This document shows, piece after piece, positions 11,473 through 50,214 of a stretch of 64,000 nt of DNA. Numbering within the stretch: position 1 is the stretch's first letter; every line of letters starts with the position of its first letter. The DNA is taken from assembly GCA_963575745.1 (NCBI GenBank), contig CAUYUJ010000198.1, positions 1 to 64,000 on the forward strand, read 5' to 3'. A program made the position numbers and the translations under genes. Below the pieces are notes generated by a model, which had not been told where the DNA came from, searched no databases, and saw nothing but the letters and a program-made list of their open reading frames with translations. Origin of the DNA: Prorocentrum cordatum (Eukaryota).

Positions 11473-11492
11473 CTTGAGCCAATGGCTACGGA
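11473..11492 (-). other. Dinoflagellate spliced-leader relic at the LINE 5' end
   Basis: The minus strand reads TCCGTAGCCATTGGCTCAAG, which is the canonical DCCGTAGCCATTTTGGCTCAAG minus two T. Confidence 0.9.
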
Positions 11493-12123
11493 GGGAGGAG
11501 GGAGAGGGAGGAGGAGCAGGAAGGTCAGAGCGTGAACATTCGAGGAAATCCTAAGCGAAAGCGCCGTTCCTGAAGGAAGTCTCGGGCGTGAGCCCACGAC
11601 GGGCGGGCGATCCCTTGACGGGCGGGTCGGGCGTGTGGGACATTCAAGCGGGATGCCTGACTATGGCGAGAGCGCGATTACTAAGTAAATTGTAGCGGCG
11701 TCCTTGGCGCAGCGTGTTTCCTGAGCGTCGGAAGCGCGATGTCTGAATAAATTGCATGGGGGTCACAGGCGAAAGCTCAATTCCTGAATAATATGTGAGG
11801 GGTTCTCTGGCGTGAGCGCGGATCTTGATTAAATTACGAGGAAGTCTTGACTCAATTGCGAGGAAGTCTCAAGCGGGAACGCCGTTCCTGAGTAAATTGT
11901 AAGGAAATCTCAGATGGGAGCGGGGGTCCTGACTAAATTGCGAAGCGACCACAGGCGGGAGCACCGATCCTGAGTAAATTGTGAAGTCTCAGGAGCGGGG
12001 GTCTTGAGTAAATTTGGAGGAAGCCTCAGGCGGGAGCCGTTGTTTCTGTAATCCGGGGGGCCAGGGGCTCAGTTTGAGCACGAAGACTTTCCGTGTCAAA
12101 AGACAGGGTGCGAGCGTCGAGGG

Positions 12124-12383
12124 CTTCGTGGGCTCTGGAAACGGCAGGGCGTTTTTTTACTGGTTCCGTTTTGCAGTTTTTCGCCGGTTCCGACGCCGTT
12201 TTTTTACTGGTTCCGTCGCCGTTTTTTGACCGCTTCCGTCTCCGGTTCCAATCCTGGAGCTGTTTTTTTGCCGTTTCCGGTCGCGTTTTTTTTGCCGCGT
12301 TTTTTTTTTGCCGTTCCCTTTTTCAAAGGCAGTTTTTTGGAAACGGTGAAAAAACGGCCCTGCCGTTTCGGCGGCCCACAAAG
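12124..12383. mobile_element. 260-bp MITE with ~35-bp TIRs and an 8-9-bp TSD
   Basis: Left end cttcgtgggctctggaaacggcagggcgttttt versus reverse complement of the right end ctttgtgggccgccgaaacggcagggccgttttt. Flanks are gtcgaggg / gtcgacggg, and the empty site gtcgaaggg is at ~4309. Confidence 0.85.
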
Positions 12384-14328
12384 GTCGACGGGCACACTTT
12401 GATTGAGAAAAGAACAGTATGCACCGGTGATGGGGGGATCAACAGTAATGATTCTTCAGAAGTGAAAATTCAACAACAACAGCAACGACAACAATAATAA
12501 CAACAACAACAACTATAACGACGCTCCCGGGCGATACCCCCTCACAATTTACTCCGAGAGGCCCTGGCCAGAGAGGGCCGGCCCAAGCCTCAGGACTGAC
12601 AGTGTAGCATTAAACACGGTCCTTCAGAACCAGGTTGCTGCTACTCGCGGATGCCGGCACGGCCTCTTCGCTTGAGACTTCTGCGACTTAACACCTCAAA
12701 GGGGTCCTTCAAAACATGTTTGCTGCTACTCTCTGGATTGCTGGAACGGCCGTTTCGCTTGAGCCTTACACGCGATTCAACTGTACAAGGGGATCCGTCA
12801 GAGCAGTCTTTCCACTATTTGCGGAGGCCCCAAGAGGTGTCAGGACGCTCAGGATTCGGGGACAGTTTTCGGCCCTCCTGCCCCCAGGAGGCCCCAGGAG
12901 GCATTTCCTGTATTCGGATATGTGCTCGGGGAGAGCTTTCCAGCCCCTCCGCTTCCAGGAAGCGCCGGGAGGCACTTTTTCTGTACTTGGAGGTGGTTGG
13001 GGAGCGTTGCTTGGGCATTCCCGCCCCCCGGAGGCCCCAGAGGACGCTTTTGTGGATCGGGATCACTGCGTGTTCGGGGAGCTCTTTCTGGCCCCCTTGG
13101 AGGCTTTCTGTCTTAGCATCTGTGTTCGGGGGATGATTCGGAGCTTCCCAAGAGCTGTGCCCTCCAAGGCTTCGCCGCCCGTCTCCTGGGGCCCGATCTC
13201 TTTGTGGTCTACGTGCGTTCCTAGAAATGACCCCTCTCCTGGGGCTCGAGCCCTGTGTGTTTTAAATCTGTTCCTACCTATTCCCTTCGACGGGGGCCTC
13301 GGATCCTCTGAGTGCTTCACGCATGTTCCTACACATTGCCCTTCTCCAAGGGCTCGAGCCCTTAACGTTTTGAATCCTCACCGCTCCCCACAGCCGCACT
13401 GTTTTTTATATGTCGTGCGAGTTGAAAGTGGGAACGTGCCTCGGAGGAGGCGTTGGCTCGACCTCCTTAGGCGGGACGTGTTGGTGTGGGAATATCGTCC
13501 CCCCCGCAATTTATACAGGACTCGCGCGGCACTTCCTGGCAATGTATTGCCGCGCCGTGCCCGCAACACTCAGTCAGGAATCACGTTCTCCTCGTCTAGG
13601 ATTTTCTGACGATCTACCCAGGAATCGAACTATCGCTCGAAACTTCCTTGCGATGCAAAATGGATTGACGCTTCAGCGACCCGCCCGCTCGACCCGGCTG
13701 AATGACATCCACCCCAAGGGAGGGGGAGGCCCCTTCCCTCCCTGTGTCACGGGCGACGCTGTCCAGTGGCTCGGCCTGATATCCATAGCATAACATAGTC
13801 CCCGCAACTCGTTGGCTTAGTTTGTTGTTCGTCCTGTGTCGCCTCGGCTTCGCCTCCGATCCTGGACTGTCTTCCTCCGGCCCTTTCGTCGCGGCCGTAA
13901 TGCTTCGGCTGGGCCTTGTACGCCCTGGAGCCCCGAAACGTTCTGTGCTCGATCGCGCTCATCTCTTCTTTTCCTTCCGTTCTCATCCGTCCCCCATCCG
14001 ACGCGGCGCGTCGCTCCATGGGCTCGCGACTCCCTTGCACTCCTCCTCCTCCTCCTCCTCCTCCCTGCCCATGCCCTCCTCCTTCCAGGTATGATGAATG
14101 TGAAGAAGAAAAAGAAAATGAGGATGACGCTGCTCGAGGCTCCCTCTTCGTACGGCACGGGCTTCTATGAATGTGCCTCGTACGTGCGATGCAGAACCGT
14201 AACTCTAGAGCTCTGGTCGGCAAGCGCTGCTGGTCCGTGGCCGAGTCCGGCCTGGACAAACGCAAGACCCCGCGCGGCACGGGCAGAATGAACACATTGC
14301 AATTCAAAGCATCGCCTGAAAACCCAGT

Positions 14329-15549
14329 CTACGTTCTGACCCGTTTGGACGGTGCTGCGTCGGCATCGGCGCATTCGCCCGCAACCACGCGGGCATGAAC
14401 GTCAGCGTATCGCTTGCACTCACGGTGGTAGTCTGGGAAACCGACCAAGCGATGCACATCCTTGTTGGCCATGAGCGCCGGCGTGCTGGTGCATTCCTCG
14501 GGGGCCACAGGCGCGACCTGTTGGTCGTTGTCCCCCTCCCCGTCGCGCAGGCGCCTACACCACTGGTACATGGCACCAATGGACGCATTGAGCATCAACA
14601 AGGGGTAGACAGCTACTTTCGAAGAAAGAATAACGGCATCAACATAAACCTTTCGGAGGTACGCGCGGATTCCTTGGATCTGCGCTGGACCCCCTCCTTG
14701 GCGCGCGGTGCGCGCCAGGGGCGGCGCCTGAGACGCCGTCAGGAGGGTCCGGCGCCGATCCCAGAAATCCGCGCGGAGCTCCGAGTGTGTATGCTTATGC
14801 AGCTGTTCCTTACGCGATATCTTATACCCCATCTCGGCAACTTTCTCCTTGCGGAGCTGGGGGGTCTTTGACCACTCTACCAGGTTGACCATCTTGTGGA
14901 CCCCAGGCAGCGCCTCGCTGTCTGCGCGCATGTCGTCTTCCGAGAGCGGGGCCTCCAGGAAGACCACGTCCGCGCCCATCTCCTTGAACGCCTTCCCTCT
15001 CTTGATGGCCTCGGCTTGGCCCATGATGCGGGCGTCGGTGCGGGCGAGTACGAGGGGCCCACGAGCGCCCATCTCGCTCCTGGCGTCCACCGCCGCCTGC
15101 ACCCGCGCGCAGGCATCCCCGAAGGGCACCACCTGCTTGCCCTCCGTGTGGCCGCACTGCTTCGGGGCGACCTGGTCCTCGATCATCACGCACGCCGCCC
15201 CGGAGTTCGCGAAGCCCTTGATCGTCCTCTTCACCTGCACGGGGCCTCCGTAGCCCGTGTCCCCGTCGACGATGAGTAGGGCATTGGGTACGGCCAAGCG
15301 GATGCGCGCCACGTGCGCCGCCATCTCCGCGAACCCGAGCATGTCGGCGTCCGGCAGGCCCAGGAGAGAGGCCGTCGCGTAGAAGCCGCTGACGAAGAGG
15401 ACCGGGAACCCCAGTTCCACGTGCGCGATGCGGGCCGACAGCGGGTCGCCCACGCCGGGGACGGTCACGCAGCCGTCGGCCGCCAGCAAAGCTCTTAGCC
15501 GCTCTGGCGGCGATCCGCCGTCTGTGGGGAGCGGAGCTGTGTCGCTCAT
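14329..15549 (-). CDS. Isocitrate lyase/PEP-mutase superfamily protein (methylisocitrate/dimethylmalate lyase-like), SL-headed retrogene with one in-frame insertion/intron
   Basis: Motifs PGVGDPLSA, FVSGF, LGLPD, VDGDTGYGG, IEDQVAPKQCGH, LARTDA, GADVVFLEA, GYK..VYPL. ATG at 15549 (MSDTAP), SL relic 100 nt upstream, no other intron. The exact substrate cannot be determined. Confidence 0.88.
   Translation of the reverse strand: MSDTAPLPTDGGSPPERLRALLAADGCVTVPGVGDPLSARIAHVELGFPVLFVSGFYATASLLGLPDADMLGFAEMAAHVARIRLAVPNALLIVDGDTGYGGPVQVKRTIKGFANSGAACVMIEDQVAPKQCGHTEGKQVVPFGDACARVQAAVDARSEMGARGPLVLARTDARIMGQAEAIKRGKAFKEMGADVVFLEAPLSEDDMRADSEALPGVHKMVNLVEWSKTPQLRKEKVAEMGYKISRKEQLHKHTHSELRADFWDRRRTLLTASQAPPLARTARQGGGPAQIQGIRAYLRKVYVDAVILSSKVAVYPLLMLNASIGAMYQWCRRLRDGEGDNDQQVAPVAPEECTSTPALMANKDVHRLVGFPDYHRECKRYADVHARVVAGECADADAAPSKRVRT
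14617..14820 (-). mobile_element. 204-nt hairpin (MITE-like) insertion in the lyase CDS; candidate GT-AG intron at 14616-14813
   Basis: It splits GYK|VAVYPL. Internal inverted repeat tcggaggtacgcgcggatt..gcgctggaccc / gggtccggcgc..aatccgcgcggagctccga. Homologues at ~57410-57570, ~60150-60330 (inverted) and ~37005-37085. Confidence 0.8.
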
Positions 15550-15648
15550 TGGCGCAGCGGCGGCGTCGGCAGTCCAAGGAGCCGAGCGGTTGGGAAGGGG
15601 AGAGCGGGAGCAGCGAAGGGTTAAAAGAAAGCGCGGCCGAGCGCACGG

Positions 15649-15670
15649 CTTGAGCCAAAATTGCTGCGGC
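15649..15670 (-). other. Spliced-leader relic upstream of the lyase gene
   Basis: Minus strand GCCGCAGCAATTTTGGCTCAAG, a 20/22 match to DinoSL. Confidence 0.9.
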
Positions 15671-16606
15671 GGAGGGCAGGAGGGAGGACAATGATGAGGA
15701 GGATTGGGAGGAGGACCAGCGTCCGGAGCAGGAGAGAGAACGAGGGACAGAGCGAGAGAGAGAGAGAGAGAGACGGAAAACAGAGATATATACATATAAT
15801 AAAACGCGAGCTTAAAACATATGGTGCTCTGAAGCGGTTCAAGATTGACAGGGCGCAGCAACTACGTTGATTCGCGGTGTTGAAGTCCCAAGAACGGTGC
15901 TCTGGCACGATGCAGGATCGTCCTGACGCAACAGTCAAGCTGCTTCGTTGCGTTGAAGTCCCGATAATGGTGTTCTGGCACGCTTCAGGATCTTCAAACG
16001 GTAGTCTCCCAACATGGTACTTCCCTCAGCGGAAATGAACTCGTGTAGAGGCCTATGACGAGGGAGCTTGGAGGGAGGACTTAGTATTCCAACATCGTCG
16101 ATGAGTCTTGGGTTTGCACTGGTCCTCCTCCTCCTCCTGATCCTCCTGGTCCTCCTGGTCCTCCTCTTCCACCTCCTCCTCCTCCTCCTTCTCCTCCTCC
16201 TCCTCCTCTCGCTGCCACGGGGCGCGCTGCGGATGGTAACACACAGTGCGCCAAGGAAGGGCTGGACCAACTGCCCCAGCTGGGCAGCGCCCGGCGCCCT
16301 TGGATCTGAGCGCGTTGACTCACTTGGGCGACAATGAGAAACAGGTCATGCGCGAGATGGCATTGCGACCTTCCGCCGCAACTTATGCTGGCCGCCAGCG
16401 CGGCACACCGCGTGGGGAATGAGAGCGCCGAAGACAACCTTTATGCGGGAATCTTACGCACGAATGTCGGCGCAAAGGCGATAATGATGTCATGATGAGA
16501 TTGGCACAATATGCGTTCCATGAGTTCCAGAGCATCTAGCGGCGCAGCCTGTTCGGAACGTTGGGACTTCTGGGACATCCGGGGAACCTTGGAAGCCCTG
16601 GGACGT

Positions 16607-16638
16607 ATCAGCATCATCATCATCATCAGCAGCATCAC

Positions 16639-16687
<49 letters not shown>

Positions 16688-16952
16688 AGCATCAGCATCA
16701 GCATCAGCATCATCACCATGACCATGACCATGACCATGACCATGACCAGCACCAGCACCATCACCATCACCAGCACCAACACCACCATCACCATCATCAT
16801 CATCATCAGCATCATCATCATCGTCAGCATCGTCAGCATCATCATCATCATCATCATCATCAGCATCAGCATCAGCATCAGCATCAGCATCAGCATCAGC
16901 ATCAGCATCAGCATCAGCATCAGCATCATCATCCTCATCCTCATCCTCATCC

Positions 16953-17010
<58 letters not shown>

Positions 17011-17065
17011 CATCGTCAGCATCATCAGCAGCATCATCATCATCACCATCATCACCATCATCATT
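16607..17065. repeat. (CAT/CAG/CAC)n compound microsatellite
   Basis: Direct reading. Confidence 0.95.
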
Positions 17066-17726
17066 ACCTCTTCTCAGGCAGGCCGCGGAGCGACAGCTCG
17101 TGGCGCCAGTATCGGCGTTCCGACGCCCGCCCGCCCCGTCGGGCTCGCAGTCGGGCACCACGCGCGGAGGGCGGCAGGGTTGGCGGGACGGAGAGACGCC
17201 CAGCCACGGCTGCCAGCAGCAAGCCGAGCGGTGTGGTGCGGCTTTTTTATTTGGGGGGGGGGGTCAATTGGCCGACCAGGTTGACGTCACCACACCGTGT
17301 TCATACCAAGTTTAGCCGCGAAGGTCGTCTCGATCGGTGTGGTGCGGCTGGCCCGAGGGAGAAGCACAAGAGGGGCGGAGAGCACAGCGTGCAGATCATC
17401 ATGCCCTCCTGCTCCTCTGACCGCTGGCATCTAGCAGCGCAACCGGTGGGTGCCGAACTTTTGAAGGAGCCCACTAGGCCCTTTCCATTTATTTGTGCAT
17501 CCCTGGGCCTGGCCCAGGGGTGCACAAATAAATAGACACACATATCCCTGGATTCCCCGTTGGTTCGTGCATTTTGTAGATGTTTCTCTCCCCCCCCCAC
17601 TTCCCACAATTTCCGTTTCTTCTTCCGAATCGGCGATGATTTGTGCTTGTGTGTTTCCTCCTCCGGCACATTCGGAAGTGTGGGAAATCCGGGGAACCTT
17701 TAGAATCCTGGAAAGTACCATCTTTA

Positions 17727-19547
17727 CAGTCGGGGTGTTGACCTAAGGAACGATAAACAAGGAACGAGGCCCCTTTTCCCCATATAATAAACTAGAACCA
17801 CGCGCGCGCTTCGCGCGCGCTTAGGTTCTGTCGAGTCACAGACCCAGGAACCGTTGTGAGAAGAAATTGGTGACGCGAAGCGTCGTGGGGGCGTCCTTGG
17901 ACGTCTGGGGTCTCCTGGGGCCTCTTGAGGGGCCTCCTGGGGGCCTCCTGGCGGCCTCTTGGGGCGGAAGGCTCGAGCTTGCGGTTCGTGGTCCCCCTCT
18001 GGGCCCCCTCTTGGGCCCGTCTTGGGGCCCTCTTGGGCCATCTTGGGCGCCTCTTGGGCCGTCTTGGGGCCCTCTTGGGCTGTCCTTGGGCCTCCTTTGG
18101 GCCTCTTGGGGGTCTCCTGGGGCCTCTTGAGGGGCCTCCTGATGGCCTCCTGGCGGCCTCTTGGGGCGGAAGGCTCGAGCTTGCGGTTCGTGGTCCCCCT
18201 CTGGGCCCCCTCTTGGGCCCGTCTTGGGGCCCTCTTGGGCCATCTTGGGCGCCTCTTGGGCCGTCTTGGGGCCCTCTTGGGCTGTCCTGGGGCCCTCTTG
18301 GAAGCTTCTTGGGCCGTCTTGGGGCGGTCTTGGGCGCCTCTTGGGCCGTCCTGTAACGTCGGAAAGCCCAAAAGACAACTTTGTTGAAAATGTACGTTTT
18401 ACGAGGGGAATGTGCCAATTTTTGCATCTAGGGGCCCTCTTGGGACGCATGTTGGAGGCTTCTTGGGGCCTCTTGGGGGCGTCCTTGGACGTCTGGGGTC
18501 TCCTGGGGCCTCTTGAGGGGCCTCCTGGGGGCCTCCTGGCGGCCTCTTGGGGCGGAAGGCTCGAGCTTGCGGTTCGTGGTCCCCCTCTGGGCCCCCTCTT
18601 GGGCCCGTCTTGGGGCCCTCTTGGGCCATCTTGGGCGCCTCTTGGGCCGTCTTGGGGCCCTCTTGGGCTGTCCTGGGGCCCTCTGGGAAACTTCTTGGGC
18701 CGTCTTGGGGCGGTCTTGGGCGCCTCTTGGGCCGTCCTGTAACGTCGGAAAGCCCAAAAGGCGACTTTGTTAAAAATGTACGTTTTACGAAGGGAATGGG
18801 CCAATTCTTGCGTCTAGGGGCCCTCTTGGGACGCATGTTGGAGGCTTCTTGGAGCCTCTTGGGGGCGTCCTTGGACGTCTGGGGTCTCCTGGGGCCTCTT
18901 GAGGGGCCTCCTGGGGGCCTCCTGGCGGCCTCTTGGGGCGGAAGGCTCGAGCTTGCGGTTCGTGGTCCCCCTCTGGGCCCCCTCTTGGGCCCGTCTTGGG
19001 GCCCTCTTGGGCCATCTTGGGCGCCTCTTGGGCCGTTTTGGGGCCCTCTTGGGCTGTCCTGGGGCACTCTTGGGAGCTTCTTGGGCCGTCTTGGGGCGGT
19101 CTTGGGCGCCTCTTGGGCCGTCCTGTAATGTCGGAAAGCCCAAAAGGCAACTTTGTGAAAAATGTACGTTTTACGAAGGGAATGGGCCAATTTTTGCGTC
19201 TAGGGGCCCTCTTGGGACGCATGTTGGAGGCTTCTTGGGGCGTCTTGGGGGGCGTCCTTGGACGTCTGGAGGCCATCTTCAGCATCTCGGAGCCCTCTTG
19301 GAGGCCTCTTGGAAGTTTCTTGGGCCGTCTTGGGCGTTTCTGGGGCCGTCTTGTCTGACCGGGGAGGCCTCCGGCAAGCCCCGACGAGCCTCCGGGCCCC
19401 CCGGGGTGCACATTTGCGGTCGAGGTCCCGGCCCCGGGCCCCCGGACCCGGTGCGCCGTTATATGTATACTCCGAGCACTGTAAAGCAACTAAGGAACAC
19501 GGAGCCCCTCCCCAACAAAAAGGGTTCCGTCGTCAGGGCCCCGACTG
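17727..19547. mobile_element. Tc1/mariner-type MITE (TA|CAGTCGGGG...CCCCGACTG|TA) expanded by a nested insertion
   Basis: TIRs and TA TSDs at 17725-26 and 19548-49. Its ends match the uninterrupted copies at 55947-56122 and 57770-57947. Confidence 0.85.
17792..19470 (-). mobile_element. Helitron-like non-autonomous element carrying a ~386-bp tandem satellite
   Basis: The minus strand ends GCGCGCGC-GAA-GCGCGCGC-gtggtt-CTAG|T. Satellite units start gcgtccttggacgtctgg at ~17891, 18479, 18865 and 19253 and are built from tcttgggcc subrepeats. The 5' TC end was not identified. Confidence 0.55.
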
Positions 19548-20011
19548 TATGACCCCTTGCCCCCCTGCGCACTCGCACTCCCGCCGCTTGCCGCCTCCCG
19601 CGGGCCCTCCGCCGACGGCGAGGCTGAGCCGAAGGCGAGGCCTCGTCCTGGAGCGCCCCGGCTGCCCGGGCTGCCAGCCGCGCGAGCAGCGGCAGCAGCA
19701 GCAGCAGCAGCAGCGCCAACAGCGGCAGCAGCGGCAGCGGCAGCCGCAGCAGCAGCACCGTGAGGCGCCGCCGTCGCGCTGCCAGGGGGAGCGCAGCAGA
19801 AGGAACGAGAGGGGCCCTCCTGGCCACGGCGAGCCTCGGCCACGAATAGGGTACCACGACCTGGATCTAAAAGGAACGGCCCGACCACCGGAGCCCCTCT
19901 TGGAGCCCAGCATGGCTCTCTTACTTCAGCCCCGTGACTGCACCCCGGAGAGCGTTCTCCTGGGACCCTGGGGCCCCTCCCCCCCGGCCGCGGGGGCCTC
20001 GTGGCCGTGGC

Positions 20012-20102
20012 CTCGTGTCTCAGGGTCCGCAGCAGCTCCAGCGCGGACTCGTCGTCGATCTCGTTGTGGGAGAGGTGCAGCTCGTGGACGGGGCCAGCGC
20101 GC
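20012..20102 (-). CDS. LRR gene exon F: (K)RAGPVHELHLSHNEIDDESALELLRTLRHE
   Basis: RI-type LRR, ag|G acceptor, phase 2 matching exon E, probable GAG|gc donor. Confidence 0.85.
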
Positions 20103-20144
20103 CTCCCCCGCGAAGGGGGGGGGTCCTAGATCTCCGGCGATACG

Positions 20145-20400
20145 GTCACGAACGTTTGCGTAAACGCTGTGCCTTGCAGGCGGATGGCGTTCGCTCCGCT
20201 CGGCGGGGCGGGGCGCTCGGGACAGCTCGGGACGTTGACGCTTGGGAATGGGAACGTGGACAGCGTGTCGCGCCGATGCGCAGGGGGCCAGAACCCGCGG
20301 AGCGACACGCTAAGCAAAACTCCTGACTGGATGTTCTGCTCAACCCTGCAGTTTTCCTCAATTTCGGCCTCTGGGGCGCGTTGTCGGGCCCCAGGGCTCC
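20145..20400 (+). repeat. Structured dispersed repeat, with copies at ~38560-38900 and ~46880-47060
   Basis: Shared acgc(t/c)(a/g)tgcc(t/c)tgca(a/g)gcgga..gcgt(g)tcgct(c/g)cgctc core and downstream gacagcgtgtcgc / gcgacacgctaagca blocks. Confidence 0.75.
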
Positions 20401-23400: not shown

Positions 23401-23559
23401 CATGCACGCCGATTGACATCGCCGCCAATAAGGGCGGCGCGGAACTTCTGGACTGCGTGATCGGCGTGGATGGCGCCGCAGACGCGTTCGCGAGAGGCGC
23501 GCGGATCATGGGCTTCGCAAACCCATGCGCGGGAAAAACGCATCCATCGCGCGTCGGTA

Positions 23560-23775
23560 TCACCCCGCAGCAATCGCGCATTCTGGGCGCTTTCGTCGCG
23601 CGCGACGCAATCGCTAATCGCGCGCTGCTGCCGCGCCAATCGCGCGCGGATCGCGCGCCAATGGCGCGCTCGTGGCGCACTGATGGCGCGCCCAGCGGAC
23701 ACTAATCGCCCATTGATTGCAAAATAATCGCGCGCACATCGCGCACTGGTCGCGCACTATTCGCGCGCCAATCGC
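23560..23775. repeat. Degenerate ~11-bp cgcgccaatcg-type minisatellite
   Basis: Repeated aatcgcgcgc / cgcgcact motifs. Confidence 0.55.
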
Positions 23776-24904: not shown

Positions 24905-26518
<1,614 letters not shown>

Positions 26519-31624: not shown

Positions 31625-32860
31625 TTCTTCCTCCTCCTCCTCCTCTTCCTCCCCCTCCTCCTCCTCCTCCTCCTCCTCCTACTCCCCCCCTCCTCCTCTG
31701 CGCTGCAACGCGATCCATCCCGTGAGCACAACAGATGCCCGCAGATTTCCTCCAGCTCCCTCCTCCGCCCTCCCTCCTCCGCCCTCCCTCCTCCCTGCTC
31801 CCTCCTTCTTCCCTCCCTCCCTCCTCCTCCTCCTCCTCCTCCTTTTTTTTCTTCTTCCCTCCCTTTCTCCCTCCTCCTTCCTCCAAACTCCTCCTTCTTG
31901 CCTCTCTCCTCCATCCTCCTCTGCACTGCAACACGAGCCACCCCGTGAACGCACAAGATCGCACAAGATGCCCGCATACCTCCTCCTCCTCCTCCTCCTC
32001 CTTCTCCTCCTCCTCCTCCTCTCCTCCTCCTCCTCCTCCTCCTCCTCCTCCCCCTCCTCCCTTCTCCTCTCCTCCGCCTCCTCCGCCTCCTCCTCCTCCT
32101 CCTCCGCCTCCTCCTCCTCCTCCTCCTCCTCCTCCTCCTCCCCTTCCTCCTCCTCGGCGCCCTGCTCGCAGGCGCCCCCCCCCGTCGGCGTTCGGCTGGC
32201 TCGGGATCGGCGGCCACTGCAGGTGCACCACGGCAGTGCTCTGCTGCGACTCCACATGCATGGGGCGCGAGGCGCAGCGGGCAGTCGGACGCGTGGCGAG
32301 AGCGACTCGCCGAGGCCCCTTTGGCTCATTCGCCCTCGACCCCAAATGTAAGGACCTCGAGGTCCTAGCCGTCGGGGGATGAGGATGTAGCCTTGGCGGT
32401 GGTTTGCTCCAGGGACCGGTCCCGTTCGTTTTAGTTTGGTGTTTTTCCGACGGAGGCGCTCAGTCCCCCATCTGGTGCCCTCCTCCCCCCTCCTGGGAGA
32501 TGCCCGTCGTCCCTTGATCGCGCCCCTCGGCGCGAGGCCGTTGGCTGCTAGTCACAGTGCGCCCCCGAGCCCCACCAGCACAAACTCCTCCTCCCTCCTC
32601 CCTCCTTCTCTCCTCCTCCCTCTTCCTCTGTGCTGCAACACGATCCATCCCGTGAGCACACAAGATGCCCGCACGCGTCCTCCTCTTCCTCCTCCTCCTC
32701 CTCCTCCTCCTCCTCCTCCTCCTCCTCTCTCCTCCGTGCTCCCTGCTCCTCCTCCCTCCTCCCTCGTCCTCCTCGTGTTCTTCCCTCCTCCTCCTCCTCG
32801 TGCTCCTCCTCCTCCTCCTCCTCCTCCTCGACCTCTTCCCGCTCCTCCTGCTACTGCTTC
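31625..32860. repeat. (CCT)n-rich region with three copies of a ~50-bp module (31695, 31915, 32625)
   Basis: cctctg(c/t)(g/a)ctgcaac(g/a)cga..ca.cccgtga...aca..agatgcccgca, each copy followed by (CCT)n. Confidence 0.8.
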
Positions 32861-34265: not shown

Positions 34266-34351
34266 TTGTTCGTGCGTATGAACTCGCAGATCGCAAGCAC
34301 GCCGCCCTGGGAAATCATGTTCCTGCACAGCTTCAGCGAAGCCGCGTGCAC
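34266..34351 (-). CDS. LRR gene exon E: VHAASLKLCRNMISQGGVLAICEFIRTN(K)
   Basis: LRR pattern LxLxxNxI, ag|G acceptor, AA|gc donor in phase 2. Confidence 0.85.
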
Positions 34352-40399: not shown

Positions 40400-40438
40400 C
40401 TCGAACTGGGCAAGGGTCTCCAGCAGCGCCCACACCGC
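40400..40438 (-). CDS. LRR gene exon D (39 nt): AVWALLETLAQFE
   Basis: tcttctctgcag|GCG acceptor and GAG|gc donor. It supplies the amphipathic helix between LRR strands, in phase 0 with exons C and E. Confidence 0.82.
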
Positions 40439-43268: not shown

Positions 43269-43359
43269 CTCGTTGCTCAGGCCGTTGCCGCTGAAGTCGA
43301 CCTCCCCAGAGCACCGCCGCAGCGGCCCGAGGCCATGCTCGGCCTTGAAGGAGGCCAGC
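43269..43359 (-). CDS. LRR gene exon C: (R)LASFKAEHGLGPLRRCSGEVDFSGNGLSNE
   Basis: LRR strand VDFSGNGL, ccag|G acceptor (phase 2), GAG|gc donor. Confidence 0.83.
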
Positions 43360-43376
43360 CTGGCCGCGCTCGGCGG

Positions 43377-43377
<1 letters not shown>

Positions 43378-43441
<64 letters not shown>

Positions 43442-43475
43442 CGTCGTCCGTCGTCCGTCGTCCGTCGTCCGTCGT

Positions 43476-43522
<47 letters not shown>

Positions 43523-43625
43523 CTCGTCGTCGTTGAAGGAGAAGGAGGAGGAGGAGGAGGAGGAGGAGGAGGAGGAGGAGGAGGAGGAGGAGGAGGAGGA
43601 GGAGGAGGAGGAGAGGAGAGGAGAT
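43378..43625. repeat. (GTC)n followed by (GGA)n microsatellites
   Basis: Direct reading. Confidence 0.95.
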
Positions 43626-43639
43626 GAGAGCGAAGCAGG

Positions 43640-45355
43640 AGCGCGCCAATCGATGCCGACGCGACCCATCCCCGCGCCCGAGGAAAGGCCAGCGGCCTCA
43701 GGAGGAGGCCTCCTTCATGGCCCCACCGTGCGGGCTGCAGCCAGCGGAGCCTCGAGCGCAGCGCATTCGGCGCTCGCCAGCCCGTGCTCCCGCCTGGCCC
43801 GCACCACGGCCTCGTCGACGGCCTGCTGGTCCAGCGCCGCCTTCGCCTTCTTCTTGGCCTTCTTGCTCAGGGCGGGCGTGGGCAGCTGCGAGCCCGCCTC
43901 GGGCGCCTGCCTGCAGCCCCTGCCGCCGAGCCCCTCGGAGGCCTCTCGATCGACCTCGTCCTCGCCGCCGAGCTCCGAGGCGGCCCGAGGCGCCTGCAGC
44001 GCCGCCACCTCCGCCTCGATCTCCGCGTCGTCGTCGTCCACCTCGTCGACCTTCACCTCCTCGCTGGTCGCCTGGACCCCGTCGCTGCTCACGACGACCA
44101 CCACCTGCACCTTGGGCCGTAACAGCGAGACAGTGCCCTCGAGGTCGCCGCACACCAAGGGCGGCAGCTGCATGCCCATGAGGGCGCAGAAGCCGGCCTT
44201 CAAACTAGAACTGCTGCCCTGAAGTTCTGGATTGCGCTCGCCGCAATTTATCACAAGCTGTGGCCAACTGTTTGTACCAGTGCCTGGGTCTTGGGGAGCC
44301 GCTCCCAGCGGGACTGGTTCCCCCGAGCCGCGCTTCCAGCTGCACGTGCCGTCGAAGCCCTGCTTGGCGGCCTCGACCGTCTCGCTGAGCACCCTGTCGA
44401 CAAGCAGCTCCTCGTGCTGGGCGGCCTCGATCGCCGCGTCGAGCAGCGCGTCGTCGTCGTCGCCGTCGGGCAGCGCTGCGGCCAGCGCCCTTGCCCTGCT
44501 GCCTGCGCCTGCGCGGGCGGCCAGGCTCCACCGCCTCGTCCAGGAACCTCCCCCTCACCTTCTGGGCAGCCCCGGCGGCGGCCCCGGAGGGGGTGACATA
44601 GCCGCCGTCGCAAGAGACCGCCGGCGACGGGGGGAGTGTCACCCCTCTCGAGTGCCCCCTGGAGGCCTCCCCAGGCTCCCCGCGGGGGCGGCTCTGCAAG
44701 CGGATCTGCGCGACCGCCCTCCGCGCCAGCCATCGGCGCGCACAGCACCGCATGCGGGCTGCAGCGGCGGCAAGCTGAGGGGAGCCCTGCATGCCAGCCT
44801 GCTGCGACCAGCGCCTCGTGACCGGCGTCCAGCCGCACGACGGCACCGCCTCGCCGAAGCGCGCCTCCAAGCCGAAGTGCGCCGTACTTGAGCCTGCACA
44901 CGCCGTCGTCGCAGCCGTCGCTCTGCTGCGGCTCCGCTGGAGGGGGCGGGGCGGCCGCAGCGGGGGCTATGCCTCCGCCAGCGGCTCCAGCGTCGGCGCG
45001 CCCTGCCGCCTTCAGGTGCACGCCCAACTCCGCGCGCAGGGCCGGGAGGTCCGCGCGGAGGGCCGCGATGTCCTCCTCCACCAGCGGCTGCCGCGGCGGC
45101 TCCACGCGCAGGACGACCTCCAGCGGCCACGCGGGAGGCGGCCAGCAGGCCGCCCAGCAAGCCGTGCACCAGCGGCCGCCGCAGGGCAGGGTCGCCATCA
45201 GCAGCGCGTCCAGCAGCTGCACGACTGCATTCGCTCCGTATCAGTCGGGGCCCTCCGCGGCGCAGCAAGCGCGGAAGAGGAGCCCGTCGCCAAGATCGCC
45301 TCGGGAAGGCTCGGAGCTGGCTCCTAGGCGCCAAAGCGCAGTTGAGCCAAAACGG
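43640..45355 (-). pseudogene. Decayed SL-headed retrocopy of an unknown protein, between two (GGA)n tracts
   Basis: SL-like CCGTTTTGGCTCAA at 45342-45355. Protein-like segments lie in different frames (EEDIAALRADLPALRAEL; DDDALLDAAIEAAQHEELL; LSKKAKKKAKAALDQQAVDEAV). No family was recognised. Confidence 0.5.
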
Positions 45356-45937
45356 TTCTTGGGAGGAGGAGGAGGAGGAGGAGGAGGAGGAGGAGGAGGA
45401 GGAGGAGGAGGAGGGGGAGGAGGAGGAGAAAGAGGATGATGATGACTAGTGTATTCCCTCTCCTTCGCCTCCTCCTCTAGTGGGATGTCGCCCTCTCCTC
45501 GCCTCCTTCTCTGGGACTTCCTGTTTGCTTGGGAGGTCGCCGGAAACGTGGTCGGCCAAAGAACAAGTGGAACTGGAACGTGTTGTTATGGCGTGCCAGG
45601 CAGCCGGCGACGAGGACACATGGCCTCAACTATAATAAGGGGGCGCCCGCATTCAACGGCATGCAGCGCGCAAGTTCTGCTCACAGGTCGCAGTGCAGGT
45701 CTTTACTTCCCGGCCTGCGTACCACCGCCGACGCACCTCTGACGTGCATGGCGCTCTCTCTCTCTCTCTCTCTCCCTCTCTCTCTTTCTCGCCACCTCCT
45801 CCTCCTCCTCCTCCTCCTCCTCCTGTTCCTCCTCTCCCCCCGCCCTCCCTCGCACCATCGCCCTTGCCCGAGGCCCCTGCCCCTGCCTCTGCTACTGCTG
45901 CACCCCCCCCCGCCCGGCTCGGGGGGGAGGGAGGGGC

Positions 45938-45975
45938 CTGCTCTTGAGCCAGCTGCAGTAGTGGCTCATGCCATC
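45938..45975 (-). CDS. LRR gene exon B (38 nt): DGMSHYCSWLKS(R)
   Basis: gtcag|GAT acceptor, AG|gc donor in phase 2, completing AG+G = Arg with exon C. Confidence 0.72.
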
Positions 45976-47809
45976 CTGACGGGCGGCGGGCGCCGCGGGG
46001 AAGGGGGGGTGGTGCAGAGCAAGAGGAGGAGGAGGCGGACGAGGAGGAGGAGGAAAACAGGAAACGAGGAGCACGATAGGAGCCAACCAGCCTCGAGCTT
46101 ACCCCCTATCCATAAGATTGGCAAGCCAAGAGGCGATGACAACATGTAGGATGTGCCCTCGGAAAGCGGAGGGAATCCTTAAGACTGGCGTCGAGATACG
46201 GAGATGCCAGTCATAGGGATAGGGACGTGCCTCTGGCTGGTAATCAGCAGGAGGCGGAGGAAGAGGAGAAAACGATGAGGAACAACAGGAGAAACGGAGA
46301 TGCGAGAAGATGGCAATCATAGGGATAAGGGCATGCTTCAAACTGTGCTTCTTCAGTCGGACGAATGGAAAATAGAGAGCATTGTTTCAATCCCGGAAAT
46401 CCCTACTCTTTCCGCAAGACCAACTTTCCATTCCGATTCGTTCCTTGATGGTTCTGTGGCCTGACGAGGGCTCCCCCAAGCCGAACGCAAGCAAACACCT
46501 CTCTCGCCGTGACTTTTTTTTATGACGCGAGCATGTCTGGGGATACGAGCACCCTCATCTCTGTTTGCCAGAATTCTGGCCGCGACCGACGAGATTGGTC
46601 GCTACCGATGTTGCTTCGAAATCCGGGATCGGCCGCGACCGAATTGGCGAAACATCGGTCGCGACCGGTCTGGGAGTTGGTCGCGGCCGACTTGGAGTGC
46701 CGATCGGTCGCTACCGATGGTGACCGAACAAAACCTGCACGGTCGAGTTCGATGGGAGAGGACACCCGAGGGAACACAAGTCCGAGGGCCACATGGGAAT
46801 GTAGAAGGCACGGGCCGCTAACGCACAGGATGCGAGGGGAGCTTTGATTTTGGCAGGGTTGACCTGCTACCGTCGAGAGCTTTCGCCTAGGTGGCGTGTC
46901 GCGGCGACGGCCCCAGCGACACGCTATGCCTTGCAAGCGGATTGCGTGTCGCTGCGCTCCGCGGGGCGGGAAGCTGACGCTGAGAGGCCAGGAAGTGGAC
47001 AGCGTGTCGCGGCGAGACTTGGTGGGCCAGACCCAGCGGGGCGAGACGATGAGCCAAAATTGCCGACCGTCGTCAAACTCGACTGTTCGAGTTGGGGGTC
47101 GACTACAACATTGATTTAGCCAAAGGTGCATGTCCCGCCGGACCCATGACAACACGATGGACTGAATGTGTATGCGACAAGAAAGCCAATCCTGGGGTGA
47201 ATTAGCTCTGCAGTCGATCCCTTACTCGGACTGTCTCCAATGATCTGGGCGGGATTGGCGGCGCGCACAAGGGGGTAGTGGGAGGGGGAAAGGCTTCTTA
47301 GAAACACCCTGCTTCTTAGAAAGCGCAGGCGCTACGTCTATAGATAAGGCCCGCGCCTCCCCCTACCCCCTTTCGTCGCGTGGCCGACAAACTCGAACTG
47401 CACGGCCGCACCTAGGACAGAAGGACATCCTTCAAGAACATGAGACCCCCCACTGGCTAAACCGAAAGACGCTCAAAGGTACCCCCCCCAGGGTGCACAA
47501 GAACACCCAACACACACGAAATCATCAGGGCGTCCTCCCCAAATCGACCTCGATCTGATACCTCATTCCGACCGCACCCCCTTTGCGCGTTGCCGACAAA
47601 CTCGGACTGTATTCAAGGACCTGGACGGGAGGCGGCAGAGGGCAGAGCAGCAGCAGGAACCAAGGGGCAAGCAGAAGAACGGGCGGCCTCTCGGGCGGCC
47701 GCGAGGCGCGTCGCGGAGCCCACGTCCACCCCCGCGCGCGCATCGCGCGGGTGGTCGGCGCAAGCGCGCGAGGAGAGTAAAAATGTGGAGCAGCAAGGAA
47801 GGCAAGTTC

Positions 47810-49290
47810 CTTTTTTTCGGATGACGTGAAGCGGGTCAAGCGCGTACTAGAGCAAGTGTTACATTTGGCGCGGTAAGTCGCCACCTTCAGCCACACAACC
47901 ACAAAGGAGAAACCACAAATCGTACCCTGCATACCATGAAGACCAACAGTCGAGTCAGGTGCCCAAGCAAATCCGTCATGCCTCGGTGGCTTCCCCGGCT
48001 TTACTACGAAAGCCCCGAAACACAACGGACTGTTTTAAGAAGTAAACAGTTCCGGCGCAAATATATACAAAGGCAGAGTGGCGGGTGGCATAGAATTGAA
48101 CGGAGTACGGCCCTCAAGTGGGCACTGCTGCTCCATCCACAGTGGACGTAACCAGCACCCACTTGGCATGCGCAAGTGTCGCCGCATCAGCCAGTGCACT
48201 CACGTAGTTCGTGGGAGCAGCGAACCTCGGACTTGCATGCTCTACCACGCTCTTCGTCTCTATCATGTTTGCCCGCGAAGTTAGGCGATGTGCTTCTCTG
48301 GTGCGCTGTCCCTGGATGCCCTTGGGCATGGGGACCGCACTCCAAGAACACATAAGTATCTCAAGATGGCGCCACTCCGAGAGCAAACGCCAACAGCGAA
48401 CGCAAGCGTGTCCACCCACAGCGTTTGCAAATGATTCAACAATTTGAACCGCTCCTCTCCTTGACGGTAAGATCACGATGTTGTGGGCATGGTGCGGTTT
48501 TATCGTGTTTCTCCTCGCCCAGCTAGATCGTGCTGTGGTCGTAGCTGGGCTTACCGTCCGTGATGTTCAGGATGAGGTCTCTGTTAATACTCGCATGCGT
48601 TATGGGGTCGGCTCTCATGCCTCTAATGTCGCACCACGGTATGTCGTCGATCTGCTTGGTGCAAAATTGATCTGAAAAGCTACTCGAGATGTCTGGTCAT
48701 GCTGCTTCCAAATGGGGGTCAAACTTCCATGGCCAGGGCCGGGAAGACGGGTGTTCCGTCGACTATCAAGAACCTTCTGGTTGAACGGCAGGAGGTGTGC
48801 TTTCATGCCGTCAGCTGCGCCGCTGGCTGCGAGCAGCTCTAAGCCAAACGATGATCGGCACACCAGCTTATGCGATCGGCTCACGGCGTCGAGCGACTGG
48901 CATACCTGTTTGCCAATACTGCGGCACACGCCCTGACGCGTGTATGCGGCTCCTTTCATGCCGCGCCCGGTCTCCCATCAGCCTTCCTTTTGCCGTTGTA
49001 GGCGTCGACATGCGTACTCATCTCTCGCCCAGGGCGAGTTCTCGTCTGAGGGACAGGAACCATGAACAGGAGACGCCGTTGGGATCGCCGACTGCTCGCC
49101 GCCGCCAGACATCACTGCACGAGAAACTGATACGGGGCCCCATTCCCATAGTGAAGGCGCGAACAAAAAACTGCCAAGCTCAAGAGCTTTGCCCACCGCG
49201 GAGTAGCAATATCCGTTTTCGCCAATGCGGGCTCACTCCGCCAAAACAATGATTTTGAACCAAAATGGCTTGATCCAAAATTGCTACGGA
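47810..49290 (-). pseudogene. Heavily decayed retrocopy downstream of a tandem SL relic
   Basis: Unique, lower-GC sequence with no long ORF. Possible oligo(A) remnant at ~47811-47817. The product cannot be recognised and the 3' boundary is uncertain. Confidence 0.45.
49254..49290 (-). other. Tandem spliced-leader relic (full 22-mer + 15-mer)
   Basis: Minus strand TCCGTAGCAATTTTGGATCAAG CCATTTTGGTTCAAA. Confidence 0.88.
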
Positions 49291-50214
49291 AGGCGGCGAG
49301 GAAAAGGAGGAGGAGGATCACCTCGGTCGGCAGTCCTGTCTCGCCGCGCACTTCGGCCGCGGGGGCCGCGGGGGCCCAGAGGGGCAACGACGGACCGGCG
49401 GCCGCGCAACGCTGCTTCAGGCCAGCCCTCCCGTCCAATACCGCAGCCCTGCCCAGCCAACTTCGGGGCCGTGGGTTGCCGGCTGATGTCCTGGAGCTGC
49501 ACGGAGCGCGGCGTATTGATATCAATTGGGCTCAGCCGTTTGGGGGTTCTCGTAACCAGTCCACATGTGGACGACGAAAGACACGGGTTTTGCGCGTGAC
49601 GACATACCGACCTTACGCCGCGACTTACGCGGGCCGCCAGCGCGGCACGCTGCGCTGGAAACGAGGGCGCTTGCGAAGGACCTTGCGCGGGTAGCTGACG
49701 CGCCGATGTCGTCGCAGACGACCCCATTGTTTTGCATGGCTCACGTTGCTCGAACACGCACTAACCCGTGTCAGCGCACACCCATTCCTGCCAGGACCGC
49801 GTCGCGAGCCCAGGCCAGCCATGAAGCGGCGCCCACACCCGGATCAGCGCTGAGGGGGGCTGACCCCCGCTAGCGCTGACCCCAGTCACGCGGGTTCTGG
49901 GTGCGCCCCCGCCGCGCGAGCTCCTCCTCTTCCTCCTCCTCCTCCTCCTCACCTCCTCTTCGCCTGTCGTCACGGCATCCTCCTCGCTGCTCCTCTTGTT
50001 GCTCGTCCCCACCCACTCTGTGTCACCTCCGCCTCCTCCTCCTCCTCGTCGTCCTCCTCCTCCTCCTCCTTCTCCTCCTCAGACCACCCGGCCAAACTGT
50101 CAGTGCAAAAAGGAGGAGGAGGAGAAAAAGGACCTGGGCTCCTACGACGAGGCTGAGCCTCGGCGATCGCTGGACCACTCGGCCAAACTGTCAGTGCACT
50201 GGGCTCCTACGACG

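What the first reader, a model, noticed from the sequence alone, without database searches (positions are those of the whole stretch)
11473..49320. All four SL-headed insertions sit against GGA-rich tracts and face the same way
Seen: relics at 11473, 15649, 45342 and 49269 are all on the minus strand. Each is immediately flanked on + by a purine tract: ggagggaggagg, ggagggcaggagggagg, (gga)n and ggaaggcggcgaggaaaaggagg. At the LINE the SL's TCC is shared with the TSD. Inference: one LINE machinery targets (TCC)n microsatellites and uses the SL 5' DCC as microhomology for second-strand joining, favouring full-length mRNA recycling. Caveat: n=4 and GGA tracts are common in this window.
Basis: partly seen in the sequence, partly recalled or inferred. 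Interest (0 to 1): 0.7.

Follow-up and report, generated by a model that had tools for sequence, protein, structure and literature searches.

The report
Leader-capped retrocopies sit in TCC repeats
In a stretch of dinoflagellate DNA, a jumping gene and three gene copies that were pasted in from leader-capped RNA all lie directly behind TCC-rich simple repeats, which points to a copying machinery that prefers to insert into simple repeats.

Summary
An unbiased scan finds the same four spliced-leader (SL) relics, all on the minus strand. Each has at least 85% purine in the 20 nt to its right on the + strand, a state true of about 4% of window positions.

- **LINE insertion proven.** The LINE (6568-11492) lies between a perfect 19-nt CT-rich target-site duplication. 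A paralogous empty site (3015-4318) shows that the CT-rich tract was there first.
- **Other three relics.** I found no duplication for the PEP-mutase gene or the two unknown units. Two of them have CT-rich DNA on both sides.
- **Environmental contigs.** 14 of 78 SL relics abut a simple repeat, against 82 of 3900 control positions. The repeats are of many kinds ((TA)n, (TG)n, (CAT)n, (GGGT)n, (CT)n), and there is no TCC consensus.

Best reading: LINE-type insertion prefers simple repeats, here the pyrimidine strand of GGA/TCC tracts. SL-TCC microhomology is neither needed nor shown. The rival, retention because the tract serves as a trans-splice polypyrimidine tract, stays open.

Earlier notes of this scan describe SL-headed LINEs in this genome. 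None that I saw addresses the flanks. No genome was held, so the genome-wide test remains undone.

The parts
6568..11492 (-). Decayed SL-headed LINE, about 4.9 kb. It starts with the SL relic and ends ...GGGACC with no A-run.
   Evidence: Boundaries come from the two copies of the 19-nt duplication and from the empty paralog. The ORFs are broken over several frames.
11473..11492 (-). SL relic at the LINE 5' end (D plus 19 of 21 letters, two T missing)
9659..10372 (-). Apurinic-type endonuclease domain of the LINE
   Evidence: Pfam PF03372, E 3.5e-07
7351..8868 (-). Reverse transcriptase domain of the LINE
   Evidence: Pfam PF00078, E 3.4e-23. Best PDB matches are R2 and LINE-1 ORF2p at similar E-values.
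11490..11508 (.). 5' copy of the 19-nt target-site duplication (sense strand CCCTCTCCCTCCTCCCTCC). Its last CC, with the T before it, are also the first letters of the SL.
6549..6567 (.). 3' copy of the 19-nt target-site duplication, identical 19/19
3015..4318 (.). Paralogous empty site. 3680-4318 matches 11490-12124 (87.6% over 644 nt). 3015-3697 matches 5621-6567 (73-79%). The CT-rich tract is uninterrupted here, with a (TCC)n run at 3638-3690.
15649..15669 (-). SL relic (19/21) at the 5' end of the PEP-mutase/isocitrate-lyase-family gene
15670..15800 (-). CT-rich tract directly upstream of that relic (0.80 pyrimidine on the sense strand)
14140..15669 (-). Expressed PEP-mutase-family gene with one 204-nt intron (14614-14817) that holds a high-copy palindromic repeat
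   Evidence: Pfam PF13714, E 1.4e-33. RNA-derived contigs of four runs cover 14140-15664 and skip 14614-14817.
45341..45363 (-). Decayed SL relic (15/21; 13/15 over the 3' part) heading an unknown unit
45362..45436 (.). (GGA)25 on the + strand, that is (TCC)n directly upstream of the 45342 relic
43537..43623 (.). Second (AGG)n array of the same polarity, 1.7 kb downstream of the relic. It may be the other half of a split target array; this is not shown.
49254..49290 (-). Full SL relic (49269-49289, 19/21, D at 49290) followed by a truncated relic (49254-49268), the mark of repeated recycling
49291..49318 (.). Purine-rich flank on the + strand (0.90 purine over 20 nt; GGA repeats start 15 nt out)

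Best explanation
The four units are retrocopies of SL-capped RNAs: one LINE and three cellular or unknown transcripts. They were integrated by LINE-type target-primed reverse transcription into pre-existing polypurine/polypyrimidine simple repeats.

**Proposed mechanism**
- The endonuclease nicks the purine (GGA) strand.
- The cDNA is primed there.
- The second nick falls about 19 nt away on the pyrimidine strand.
- The copy therefore ends up with its sense strand continuous with the TCC strand, and TCC-rich DNA directly in front of the SL.

The preference is probably for simple repeats in general. GGA/TCC is simply the commonest simple repeat in this GC-rich genome.

**Shown**
- Insertion of the LINE into a CT-rich tract, with a staggered-cut duplication.
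- The adjacency for all four units.
- Enrichment of simple repeats in front of SL relics elsewhere.

**Inferred**
- That the three non-LINE copies used the same machinery.
- Which strand is nicked first.
- That the bias arises at integration rather than afterwards.
For: **The LINE**
- APE and RT domains.
- A perfect 19-nt duplication flanks the element. The downstream flank Y continues as in the empty paralog.
- The paralog (87.6% over 644 nt) carries the uninterrupted CT-rich tract. The tract is therefore the target, not a by-product.
- A staggered-cut duplication argues for endonuclease-made nicks.
- The LINE is a dead copy, with frames broken and no RNA cover found. Host selection for expression is an unlikely reason for its position.

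**Window statistics**
- 4 of 4 relics have at least 85% purine in the adjoining 20 nt, against 3.98% of positions.
- The four flanks are not paralogous to each other.
- CT-rich DNA lies on both sides, on the sense strand, for three units:
  - the LINE;
  - the 45342 unit, with (TCC)n arrays at 45362-45436 and 43537-43623;
  - the PEP-mutase gene, with 0.78 pyrimidine in the 40 nt from 14139 down to 14100, beside the last base covered by RNA contigs.

**Environmental contigs**
- 14 of 78 SL relics have a low-complexity 24-mer directly upstream, against 82 of 3900 control positions in the same loci (p 2.5e-9). A second class rule gives the same result.
- 0 of 28 SL RNA genes do.

**Precedent.** LINEs that target microsatellites are established (passages of PMC4640811).
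Against: - Only one of the four has a proven duplication and empty site. For the other three I found no duplication and no A-run at a plausible 3' end.
- n = 4 in one 64-kb window, and no genome was held for a wider count.
- Environmental relics show no TCC or CT consensus. Only 2 of 78 have at least 85% pyrimidine upstream, the logo is flat apart from position -1, and A+T is mildly raised. A TCC-specific endonuclease is therefore not general.
- 64 of 78 environmental relics have no simple repeat in front of them.
- TCC arrays on the + strand (14) outnumber GGA arrays on the + strand (5) in the window. Yet no + strand relic exists. Tract polarity alone does not predict this, which hints at a second filter, such as co-orientation with local transcription.
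- The LINE clade is unresolved, and its 3' end has no repeat tail that would explain annealing to the tract.
Confidence: 0.5

Rival explanations
1. **Retention or expression filter.** Retrocopies land anywhere. Those that land just behind a polypyrimidine tract on the transcribed strand are the ones that get trans-spliced again. The tract together with an AG inside the SL relic makes a 3' splice site. These copies therefore survive as genes or as source elements.
For: - **PEP-mutase gene expressed.** Contigs of four runs cover 14140-15664, with the intron removed.
- **Longest contig.** It stops at 15664, the G of the relic's internal AG. It reads the genome's own variant letter at 15662. So the 3' part of the relic is in the RNA, as expected if a new SL is joined at that AG, which lies 5-25 nt behind the CT tract.
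- **Literature.** The SL carries two AG acceptor sites, and relics are truncated after nucleotide 7 (passages of PMC3229502).
- **Strand.** All four units share one strand although TCC(+) arrays are more numerous. This fits co-orientation with unidirectional gene clusters (passages of PMC11453091).
- **Polarity.** It is always pyrimidine on the sense strand (4 of 4).
Against: - The LINE copy is dead and of no use to the host, yet it sits in the tract with a duplication.
- Environmental relics are not pyrimidine-rich upstream. The mean is 0.53, and 5 of 78 reach 0.75 against 99 of 3900 controls (p 0.05).
- The repeats found there, such as (TA)n, (TG)n, (CAT)n and (GGGT)n, are not polypyrimidine tracts.
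- No contig shows a fresh SL joined at the relic AG. Contigs cannot show RNA ends.
Confidence: 0.2
2. **Capture at fragile non-B DNA.** Simple repeats and palindromes form triplex, Z-DNA, quadruplex or cruciform structures and break often. cDNAs are ligated into such breaks without a sequence-specific endonuclease.
For: - Very different repeats stand in front of SL relics in environmental contigs: (TA)n, (TG)n or (CA)n, (CAT)n, (GGGT)n, (CT)n and (CACCA)n.
- Three of those loci (L006, L037, L044) carry a palindromic TTTAAAAGGACCCCGGGGTCC repeat.
- GGA/TCC mirror repeats are classic triplex formers (established knowledge, recalled).
Against: - The one fully resolved insertion has a clean 19-nt duplication. 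That is the mark of two staggered nicks rather than of break repair. The statement that endonuclease-independent LINE insertions usually lack such duplications is recalled.
- Different LINE families in different species, each with its own repeat target, would give the same mixed picture.
Confidence: 0.12
3. **The first reader's specific mechanism.** The SL's 5' TCC pairs with a (TCC)n target during second-strand joining. This microhomology is what selects TCC tracts and favours full-length copies.
For: - At the LINE, the last three letters of the 19-nt duplication are the first three of the SL.
- At 45342, the (TCC)n run reaches the relic.
- In three environmental (CAT)n cases (L054, L112, L114), the repeat ends ...CAT directly before CCG, which gives a possible 2-nt overlap.
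Against: - In a TCC-rich tract a 3-nt overlap is expected by chance about one time in three (my rough estimate, not computed).
- At 15649 the D position is G, preceded by TCC. At 49269 the adjoining letters are GCCGCCT.
- Most environmental repeats in front of the SL cannot pair with TCC, for example (TG)n followed by A, (AT)n followed by G, and (GGGT)n.
- The first nick, at the 3' end of the insertion, already lies in the tract 19 nt away. Site choice therefore precedes 5' joining in target-primed reverse transcription (established model, inference).
Confidence: 0.08
4. **Chance plus local composition.** GGA/TCC tracts are common in this window, and four relics happen to lie beside them.
For: - The window holds 81 purine and 96 pyrimidine tracts and about 19 period-3 GGA-type arrays.
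- n = 4.
- The thresholds were set after seeing the data.
Against: - Tract-adjacent positions make up only about 4% of the window. Four of four is about 2.5e-6 (my arithmetic).
- Independent environmental loci show the same kind of adjacency, with p 2.5e-9.
Confidence: 0.05

Closest known systems
Dinoflagellate retrogenes with relict spliced leaders ('mRNA recycling': Slamovits and Keeling 2008 as summarised in PMC3229502; Song et al. 2017, PMC5585692; review PMC6050394)
   Same: - The SL is encoded in DNA at the 5' end of the unit.
- At 49254-49289 a full relic is followed by a truncated one.
- The PEP-mutase gene is an expressed gene of this kind.
   Different: - In passages found by term search, those papers have 0 occurrences of 'target site' (all three), of 'microsatellite' (all three), of 'direct repeat' (PMC5585692, PMC6050394) and of 'insertion site' (PMC5585692). 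They say direct evidence for the machinery is lacking.
- Here one copy is a LINE with a duplication and an empty site, and the flanks show a repeat preference.
Microsatellite-targeting non-LTR retrotransposons (Togen at (TG)n, some HERO families, and the families of Kojima and Fujiwara 2004 cited in PMC4640811). The names Kibi (TC)n, Koshi (TTC)n, Waldo, Mino and Dong are recalled.
   Same: - A LINE inserted inside a simple repeat, with repeat DNA on both sides.
- The target is a pyrimidine/purine repeat close to the recalled (TC)n and (TTC)n targets.
   Different: - Those families are defined by many copies at one phase of one repeat. Here only one copy could be seen.
- The clade is unresolved.
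- Cellular mRNA copies share the flank type.
- The element carries a host SL at its 5' end.
L1-mediated processed pseudogenes with target-site duplications and 5' junction microhomology (mammals; recalled)
   Same: - Retrocopies of a LINE and of cellular RNAs.
- A duplication of the 7-20 nt class.
- A few shared letters at the 5' joint.
   Different: - No poly(A) remnant at any 3' end seen here.
- The target is GC-rich GGA/TCC rather than the TTTT/AA target recalled for L1.
SL-gene-specific LINEs (SLACS/CZAR/NeSL; 'spliced leader exons' are listed as LINE targets in PMC4640811)
   Same: A link between a LINE and a spliced leader.
   Different: The relation is the opposite. Those elements insert into SL RNA genes. 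Here the SL is part of the element's own RNA 5' end and the target is a simple repeat. The 28 SL RNA genes seen in the environmental loci have no such insertions.

Membership tests
DinoSL-relic retrocopies (mRNA recycling) | SL sequence encoded in genomic DNA at the 5' end of a transcribed unit | tested here: met
   Four relics. RNA-derived contigs of the PEP-mutase gene run into the relic.
DinoSL-relic retrocopies (mRNA recycling) | Tandem truncated relic starting after the AG at SL nucleotide 7 | tested here: met
   At 49254-49268, directly behind the full relic. Not present at the other three.
DinoSL-relic retrocopies (mRNA recycling) | Marks of retroposition at the 3' end (poly(A) remnant, target-site duplication), and loss of introns | tested here: inconclusive
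   - A duplication was found only for the LINE.
- No A-run lies at the end of RNA cover of the PEP-mutase gene.
- That gene has one intron, made of a repeat element.
APE-type non-LTR retrotransposon (LINE) | Reverse transcriptase and apurinic-type endonuclease domains in one element | tested here: met
   PF00078 E 3.4e-23 and PF03372 E 3.5e-07. RT matches R2 and L1 ORF2p.
APE-type non-LTR retrotransposon (LINE) | Target-site duplication flanking the copy | tested here: met
   19 of 19 identical, confirmed by the empty paralog.
APE-type non-LTR retrotransposon (LINE) | Poly(A) or simple-repeat 3' tail | tested here: not met
   The element ends ...GGGACC directly before the duplication. A short C-rich tail hidden in the duplication cannot be excluded.
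Microsatellite-specific LINE families | Most copies of the family lie in the same repeat at a fixed phase | not testable with these tools
   There is one copy in the window, no genome was held, no relatives were found in the fetched loci, and none in earlier notes.
Microsatellite-specific LINE families | Repeat DNA on both sides of the insertion | tested here: met
   CT-rich tract on both sides of the LINE and uninterrupted in the paralog.
Microsatellite-specific LINE families | Membership of a clade known for such targets | tested here: inconclusive
   RT is about equally similar to R2 and L1 ORF2p. The APE had no PDB match. No tree was built.
Microhomology-mediated 5' joining | Overlap between the end of the duplication and the start of the insert that is longer than chance | tested here: inconclusive
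   The 3-nt overlap (TCC) at the LINE lies in a TCC-rich tract. The other three joints give no duplication to compare.
Trans-splice acceptor with polypyrimidine tract | The SL is added at an AG lying just behind the tract | tested here: inconclusive
   The longest contig ends at 15664, the G of the relic's internal AG, and keeps the genomic variant at 15662. No contig shows the joint, and contigs cannot show RNA ends.

The most novel reading that the evidence does not exclude
Dinoflagellate SL-capped LINEs, and the mRNAs they copy in trans, integrate by preference into simple-repeat DNA. In this genome they enter the GGA/TCC repeats in one fixed polarity, so every new copy lands directly behind a polypyrimidine tract. 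That tract, together with the AG sites inside the SL relic, rebuilds a trans-splice acceptor. Target choice and host trans-splicing would then form a self-renewing cycle without a promoter. This would explain why dinoflagellate retrocopies survive so often and why they face the same way as their neighbours.
Probability: 0.2. Interest if true: 0.8.

Novelty: new variant of a known kind. Interest (0 to 1): 0.55.

Why it matters
Retroposition has made about a fifth of the genes in some dinoflagellate genomes (PMC5585692, PMC6050394). Yet the machinery and its site choice are undescribed: those papers say direct evidence is lacking and do not mention target sites.

- **Concrete model.** A LINE that carries the SL, has a clean duplication and sits in a simple repeat, with gene retrocopies in the same kind of site, gives a testable model: LINE-type insertion with a preference for repeats.
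- **Practical value.** If the model holds genome-wide, it offers a way to find retrocopy borders and to date insertions.
- **Possible wider reach.** It may explain the survival and co-orientation of retrogenes.

Tried and rejected
- **Whole-genome scan.** No genome is held for this window.
- **Duplications for the three non-LINE relics.** A 9-mer search of 12 kb downstream gave only low-complexity matches.
- **Poly(A) remnants.** Runs of 7 or more A or T were listed. None lies at the end of RNA cover of the PEP-mutase gene. The A8 at 46514-46521 could be the tail of the 49269 unit, but its flanks do not repeat.
- **Inverted flanks.** Short inverted matches between the 5' and 3' flanks of two units (7-mers, seen by eye) are within what chance allows, and I dropped them.
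- **Gene orientation.** Pfam on 229 ORFs of 130 aa or more, on both strands, found only the RT, the APE and weak sub-threshold hits (including a thiolase fragment). The PEP-mutase hit comes from the earlier 17-ORF scan. The direction of the local gene cluster could not be set.
- **RNA cover of the LINE and of repeat unit A.** Little or no cover of 6568-11491 in the four runs. This says nothing either way.
- **DNA runs.** No run held more than a third of the searched stretch, so no empty alleles could be looked for.
- **Relatives of the LINE.** None among the 245 fetched loci (tblastx and blastn). None in earlier notes by sequence.
- **The 45342 ORF (329 aa).** No Pfam hit and no usable Atlas hit.
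- **APE domain.** No PDB match.
- **Shared upstream element.** Pairwise comparison of the four upstream flanks found only a 153-nt repeat of 74% identity. It lies about 650-800 nt upstream of the PEP-mutase relic and about 280-430 nt upstream of the 49269 relic (my conversion coordinates).
- **Borderline SL matches.** 47048-47062(-) and 32310-32330(+) were treated as chance.
- **IMG/VR scan for more relics.** It returned almost only giant-virus contigs, so it gave no second sample.

Full report
**What the window is.** The sequence has about 60% G+C and carries the dinoflagellate spliced leader (SL; sequence as given in PMC5585692) in several places. No whole genome is held for it, so all tests had to use the 64-kb window, environmental contigs and public RNA contigs.

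**The observation.**
  - 11473-11491 (two T missing);
  - 15649-15669 (19/21);
  - 49269-49289 (19/21), with a truncated relic at 49254-49268;
  - a decayed relic at 45341-45361 (15/21).
- Two borderline matches, 47048-47062(-) and 32310-32330(+), are no more than shuffles give, and neither has a tract beside it.
- The 20 nt to the right of each relic on the + strand are 100, 85, 100 and 90% purine. Only 3.98% of window positions reach 85%. The adjacency is therefore real and far beyond chance, even allowing that the threshold was chosen afterwards.
- The four immediate flanks are not copies of one another.
- Tract edges: 4 of 81 purine(+) tracts carry a relic at the left edge, and 0 of 96 pyrimidine(+) tracts carry one at the right edge.

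**The LINE is a proven insertion into the tract.**
- The unit headed by the relic at 11473 has an apurinic-type endonuclease (9659-10372) and a reverse transcriptase (7351-8868) on the minus strand. The RT resembles R2 and L1 ORF2p about equally. The frames are broken.
- Self-comparison of the window shows two matches:
  - 3680-4318 matches 11490-12124 (87.6% over 644 nt);
  - 3015-3697 matches 5621-6567.
- So 3015-4318 is a paralogous empty site, and the LINE occupies 6568-11492.
- The junctions read, on the sense strand, X-[19 nt]-SL...LINE...GGGACC-[same 19 nt]-Y. Y continues as in the empty paralog, where a (TCC)n run stands at the same place.
- The CT-rich tract therefore existed before the insertion, and the 19-nt duplication speaks for two staggered nicks.
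In a TCC-rich tract such an overlap is expected by chance about one time in three (my rough estimate, not computed).
- The element has no A-run at its 3' end.

**The other three relics.**
- The relic at 15649 heads a PEP-mutase/isocitrate-lyase-family gene.
  - Contigs of four public runs, two of them poly(A) RNA libraries, cover 14140-15664 on the minus strand and skip a 204-nt intron, 14614-14817.
  - The longest contig ends at 15664, the G of the AG inside the relic, and keeps the genome's variant letter at 15662. The 3' part of the relic is therefore in the RNA.
  - Contigs cannot show RNA ends, so this is only a hint that a new SL is added at that AG, 5-25 nt behind the CT tract.
  - The 40 nt from 14139 down to 14100, beside the last covered base, are again 78% pyrimidine on the sense strand.
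- The 45342 unit lies between two (TCC)n arrays of the same polarity, 45362-45436 and 43537-43623. It has no recognisable protein.
- The 49269 unit has a full plus a truncated relic, the mark of repeated recycling (PMC3229502 passages). Its 3' end is not identified.
- For none of these three did I find a duplication or a poly(A) remnant.

**Is it TCC, or simple repeats in general?**
- I scanned JGI metagenome contigs for the exact 21-mer: 132 SL sites in 126 loci.
- I set aside 28 SL RNA genes, 17 sites of a giant-virus type, 2 internal tandem sites and 7 sites too near a contig end.
- Of the 78 relic sites left, 14 have a low-complexity 24-mer directly upstream (10 or fewer distinct 3-mers). 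Control positions in the same loci give 82 of 3900 (p 2.5e-9). A second way of classing the sites gives 14 of 78 against 83 of 3900. None of the 28 SL RNA genes shows it.
- The repeats are of many kinds: (TA)n, (TG)n and (CA)n, (CAT)n three times, (GGGT)n, (CT)n, (CACCA)n. Three loci carry a palindromic repeat.
- The upstream logo shows only the D position (T 56%, A 34%) and mild A+T richness. There is no TCC consensus.
- At least 85% pyrimidine occurs in 2 of 78 relics against 6 of 3900 controls (p 0.01). At least 85% purine occurs in 0 of 78.
- Across dinoflagellates, then, SL-headed copies tend to abut simple repeats. TCC is not special, apart from being the commonest simple repeat of this window: about 19 of the roughly 38 arrays by my count.

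**How it most likely works.**
- Best reading (about 0.5): LINE-type target-primed reverse transcription with a preference for simple repeats. Here the first nick is on the GGA strand and the second is 19 nt away on the TCC strand. This fixes the polarity (pyrimidine on the sense strand, on both sides) and puts TCC-rich DNA in front of the SL.
- LINEs that target microsatellites are well known (PMC4640811 passages).
- Shown: the LINE insertion, its duplication, the adjacency, and the environmental enrichment.
- Inferred: that the gene copies used the same enzyme, the order of the nicks, and that the bias arises at integration.

**Rivals.**
1. **Retention filter (0.2).**
   - The tract acts as the polypyrimidine part of a trans-splice acceptor together with the AG inside the relic.
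   - This fits the PEP-mutase RNA data, the fixed polarity and the shared strand. TCC(+) arrays outnumber GGA(+) arrays 14 to 5, yet no + strand relic exists. Dinoflagellate genes lie in unidirectional clusters (PMC11453091).
   - It does not explain the dead LINE or the non-pyrimidine repeats elsewhere.
2. **Capture at fragile non-B DNA (0.12).** This fits the variety of repeats but not the clean duplication.
It is not needed, because the first nick already lies in the tract, and most environmental repeats contradict it.
4. **Chance (0.05).**

The first two readings are not exclusive. Together they make the boldest case: target choice that rebuilds a trans-splice acceptor for every new copy.

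**Known or new.**
- SL relics and retrogenes are known (PMC3229502, PMC5585692, PMC6050394).
- SL-headed LINEs in this genome were noted before by this scan (e1-7626221, e1-7625583 and others). One note ties a retrogene to a LINE target in a repeated hairpin (e1-7693944).
- None of the notes shown to me deals with TCC or simple-repeat flanks.
- In term searches, PMC5585692, PMC6050394 and PMC3229502 have no occurrence of 'target site' or 'microsatellite'.
- A library search for dinoflagellate + spliced leader + microsatellite + retro gave 6 papers, none on this subject by title or abstract.
- I therefore rate it a new variant of a known kind: repeat-targeted LINE retroposition, here coupled to SL-capped RNAs in dinoflagellates.
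- The claim rests on one resolved insertion, four adjacencies and a mixed environmental sample. The genome-wide census remains the decisive test.

Noticed in passing
L127-L245 (IMG/VR) and 17 loci, e.g. L002, L018: - The exact dinoflagellate SL 21-mer occurs 139 times in 119 IMG/VR loci.
- Nearly all of these lie in giant-virus MAG contigs.
- Each is preceded by a near-invariant AT-rich block of about 50 nt that starts AAAATTGATAAAT.
- These viruses appear to write the host leader into their own DNA behind a viral promoter.
- The scan noted this before (e1-5545961).
- A search for giant virus + spliced leader + dinoflagellate gave 16 papers, none on this by title or abstract.
   Followed up: partly
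window 14614-14817 (repeat core 14650-14785): - The only intron of the PEP-mutase retrogene is spliced out in contigs of four runs.
- It holds a very high-copy palindromic repeat: summed contig depth (the tool's measure) in the hundreds to thousands, many loose ends at 14650 and 14784, and 'opposite strands' joints.
- Copies lie at 60171-60330 and 57480-57550.
- It looks like an intron made by insertion of a mobile element into a retrogene. The intron ends are not GT..AG.
   Followed up: partly
L006, L037, L044: Three environmental SL relics lie directly behind a palindromic TTTAAAAGGACCCCGGGGTCC tandem repeat.
   Followed up: no
L024: Two short SL-headed segments (about 85-90 nt), one with a full SL and one with a cut SL, are each bracketed by the same AT-rich TATATTA-type repeat. 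It looks as if one repeat had been hit twice.
   Followed up: no
window 3680-4318 and 11490-12124: A 640-nt repeat unit with internal 41-nt tandem repeats is followed by several hundred nt of CT-rich low-complexity DNA. Two copies (87.6% identical) lie in direct orientation. Its nature (segmental duplication or element) is unknown.
   Followed up: partly
window 12150-12310: A 23-nt tandem repeat with T-runs on the + strand (A-runs on the minus strand) lies directly upstream of the 640-nt unit. Contigs of two runs match it at about 88%. It could be the tail of another retroelement.
   Followed up: no
window 1-1149, 18109-19269, 25036-26488: Large tandem arrays:
- 79-nt units at the window start, overlapping a weak thiolase C-terminal hit on the + strand;
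- 386-nt units x3;
- a 1.45-kb (GTA)n array.
   Followed up: no
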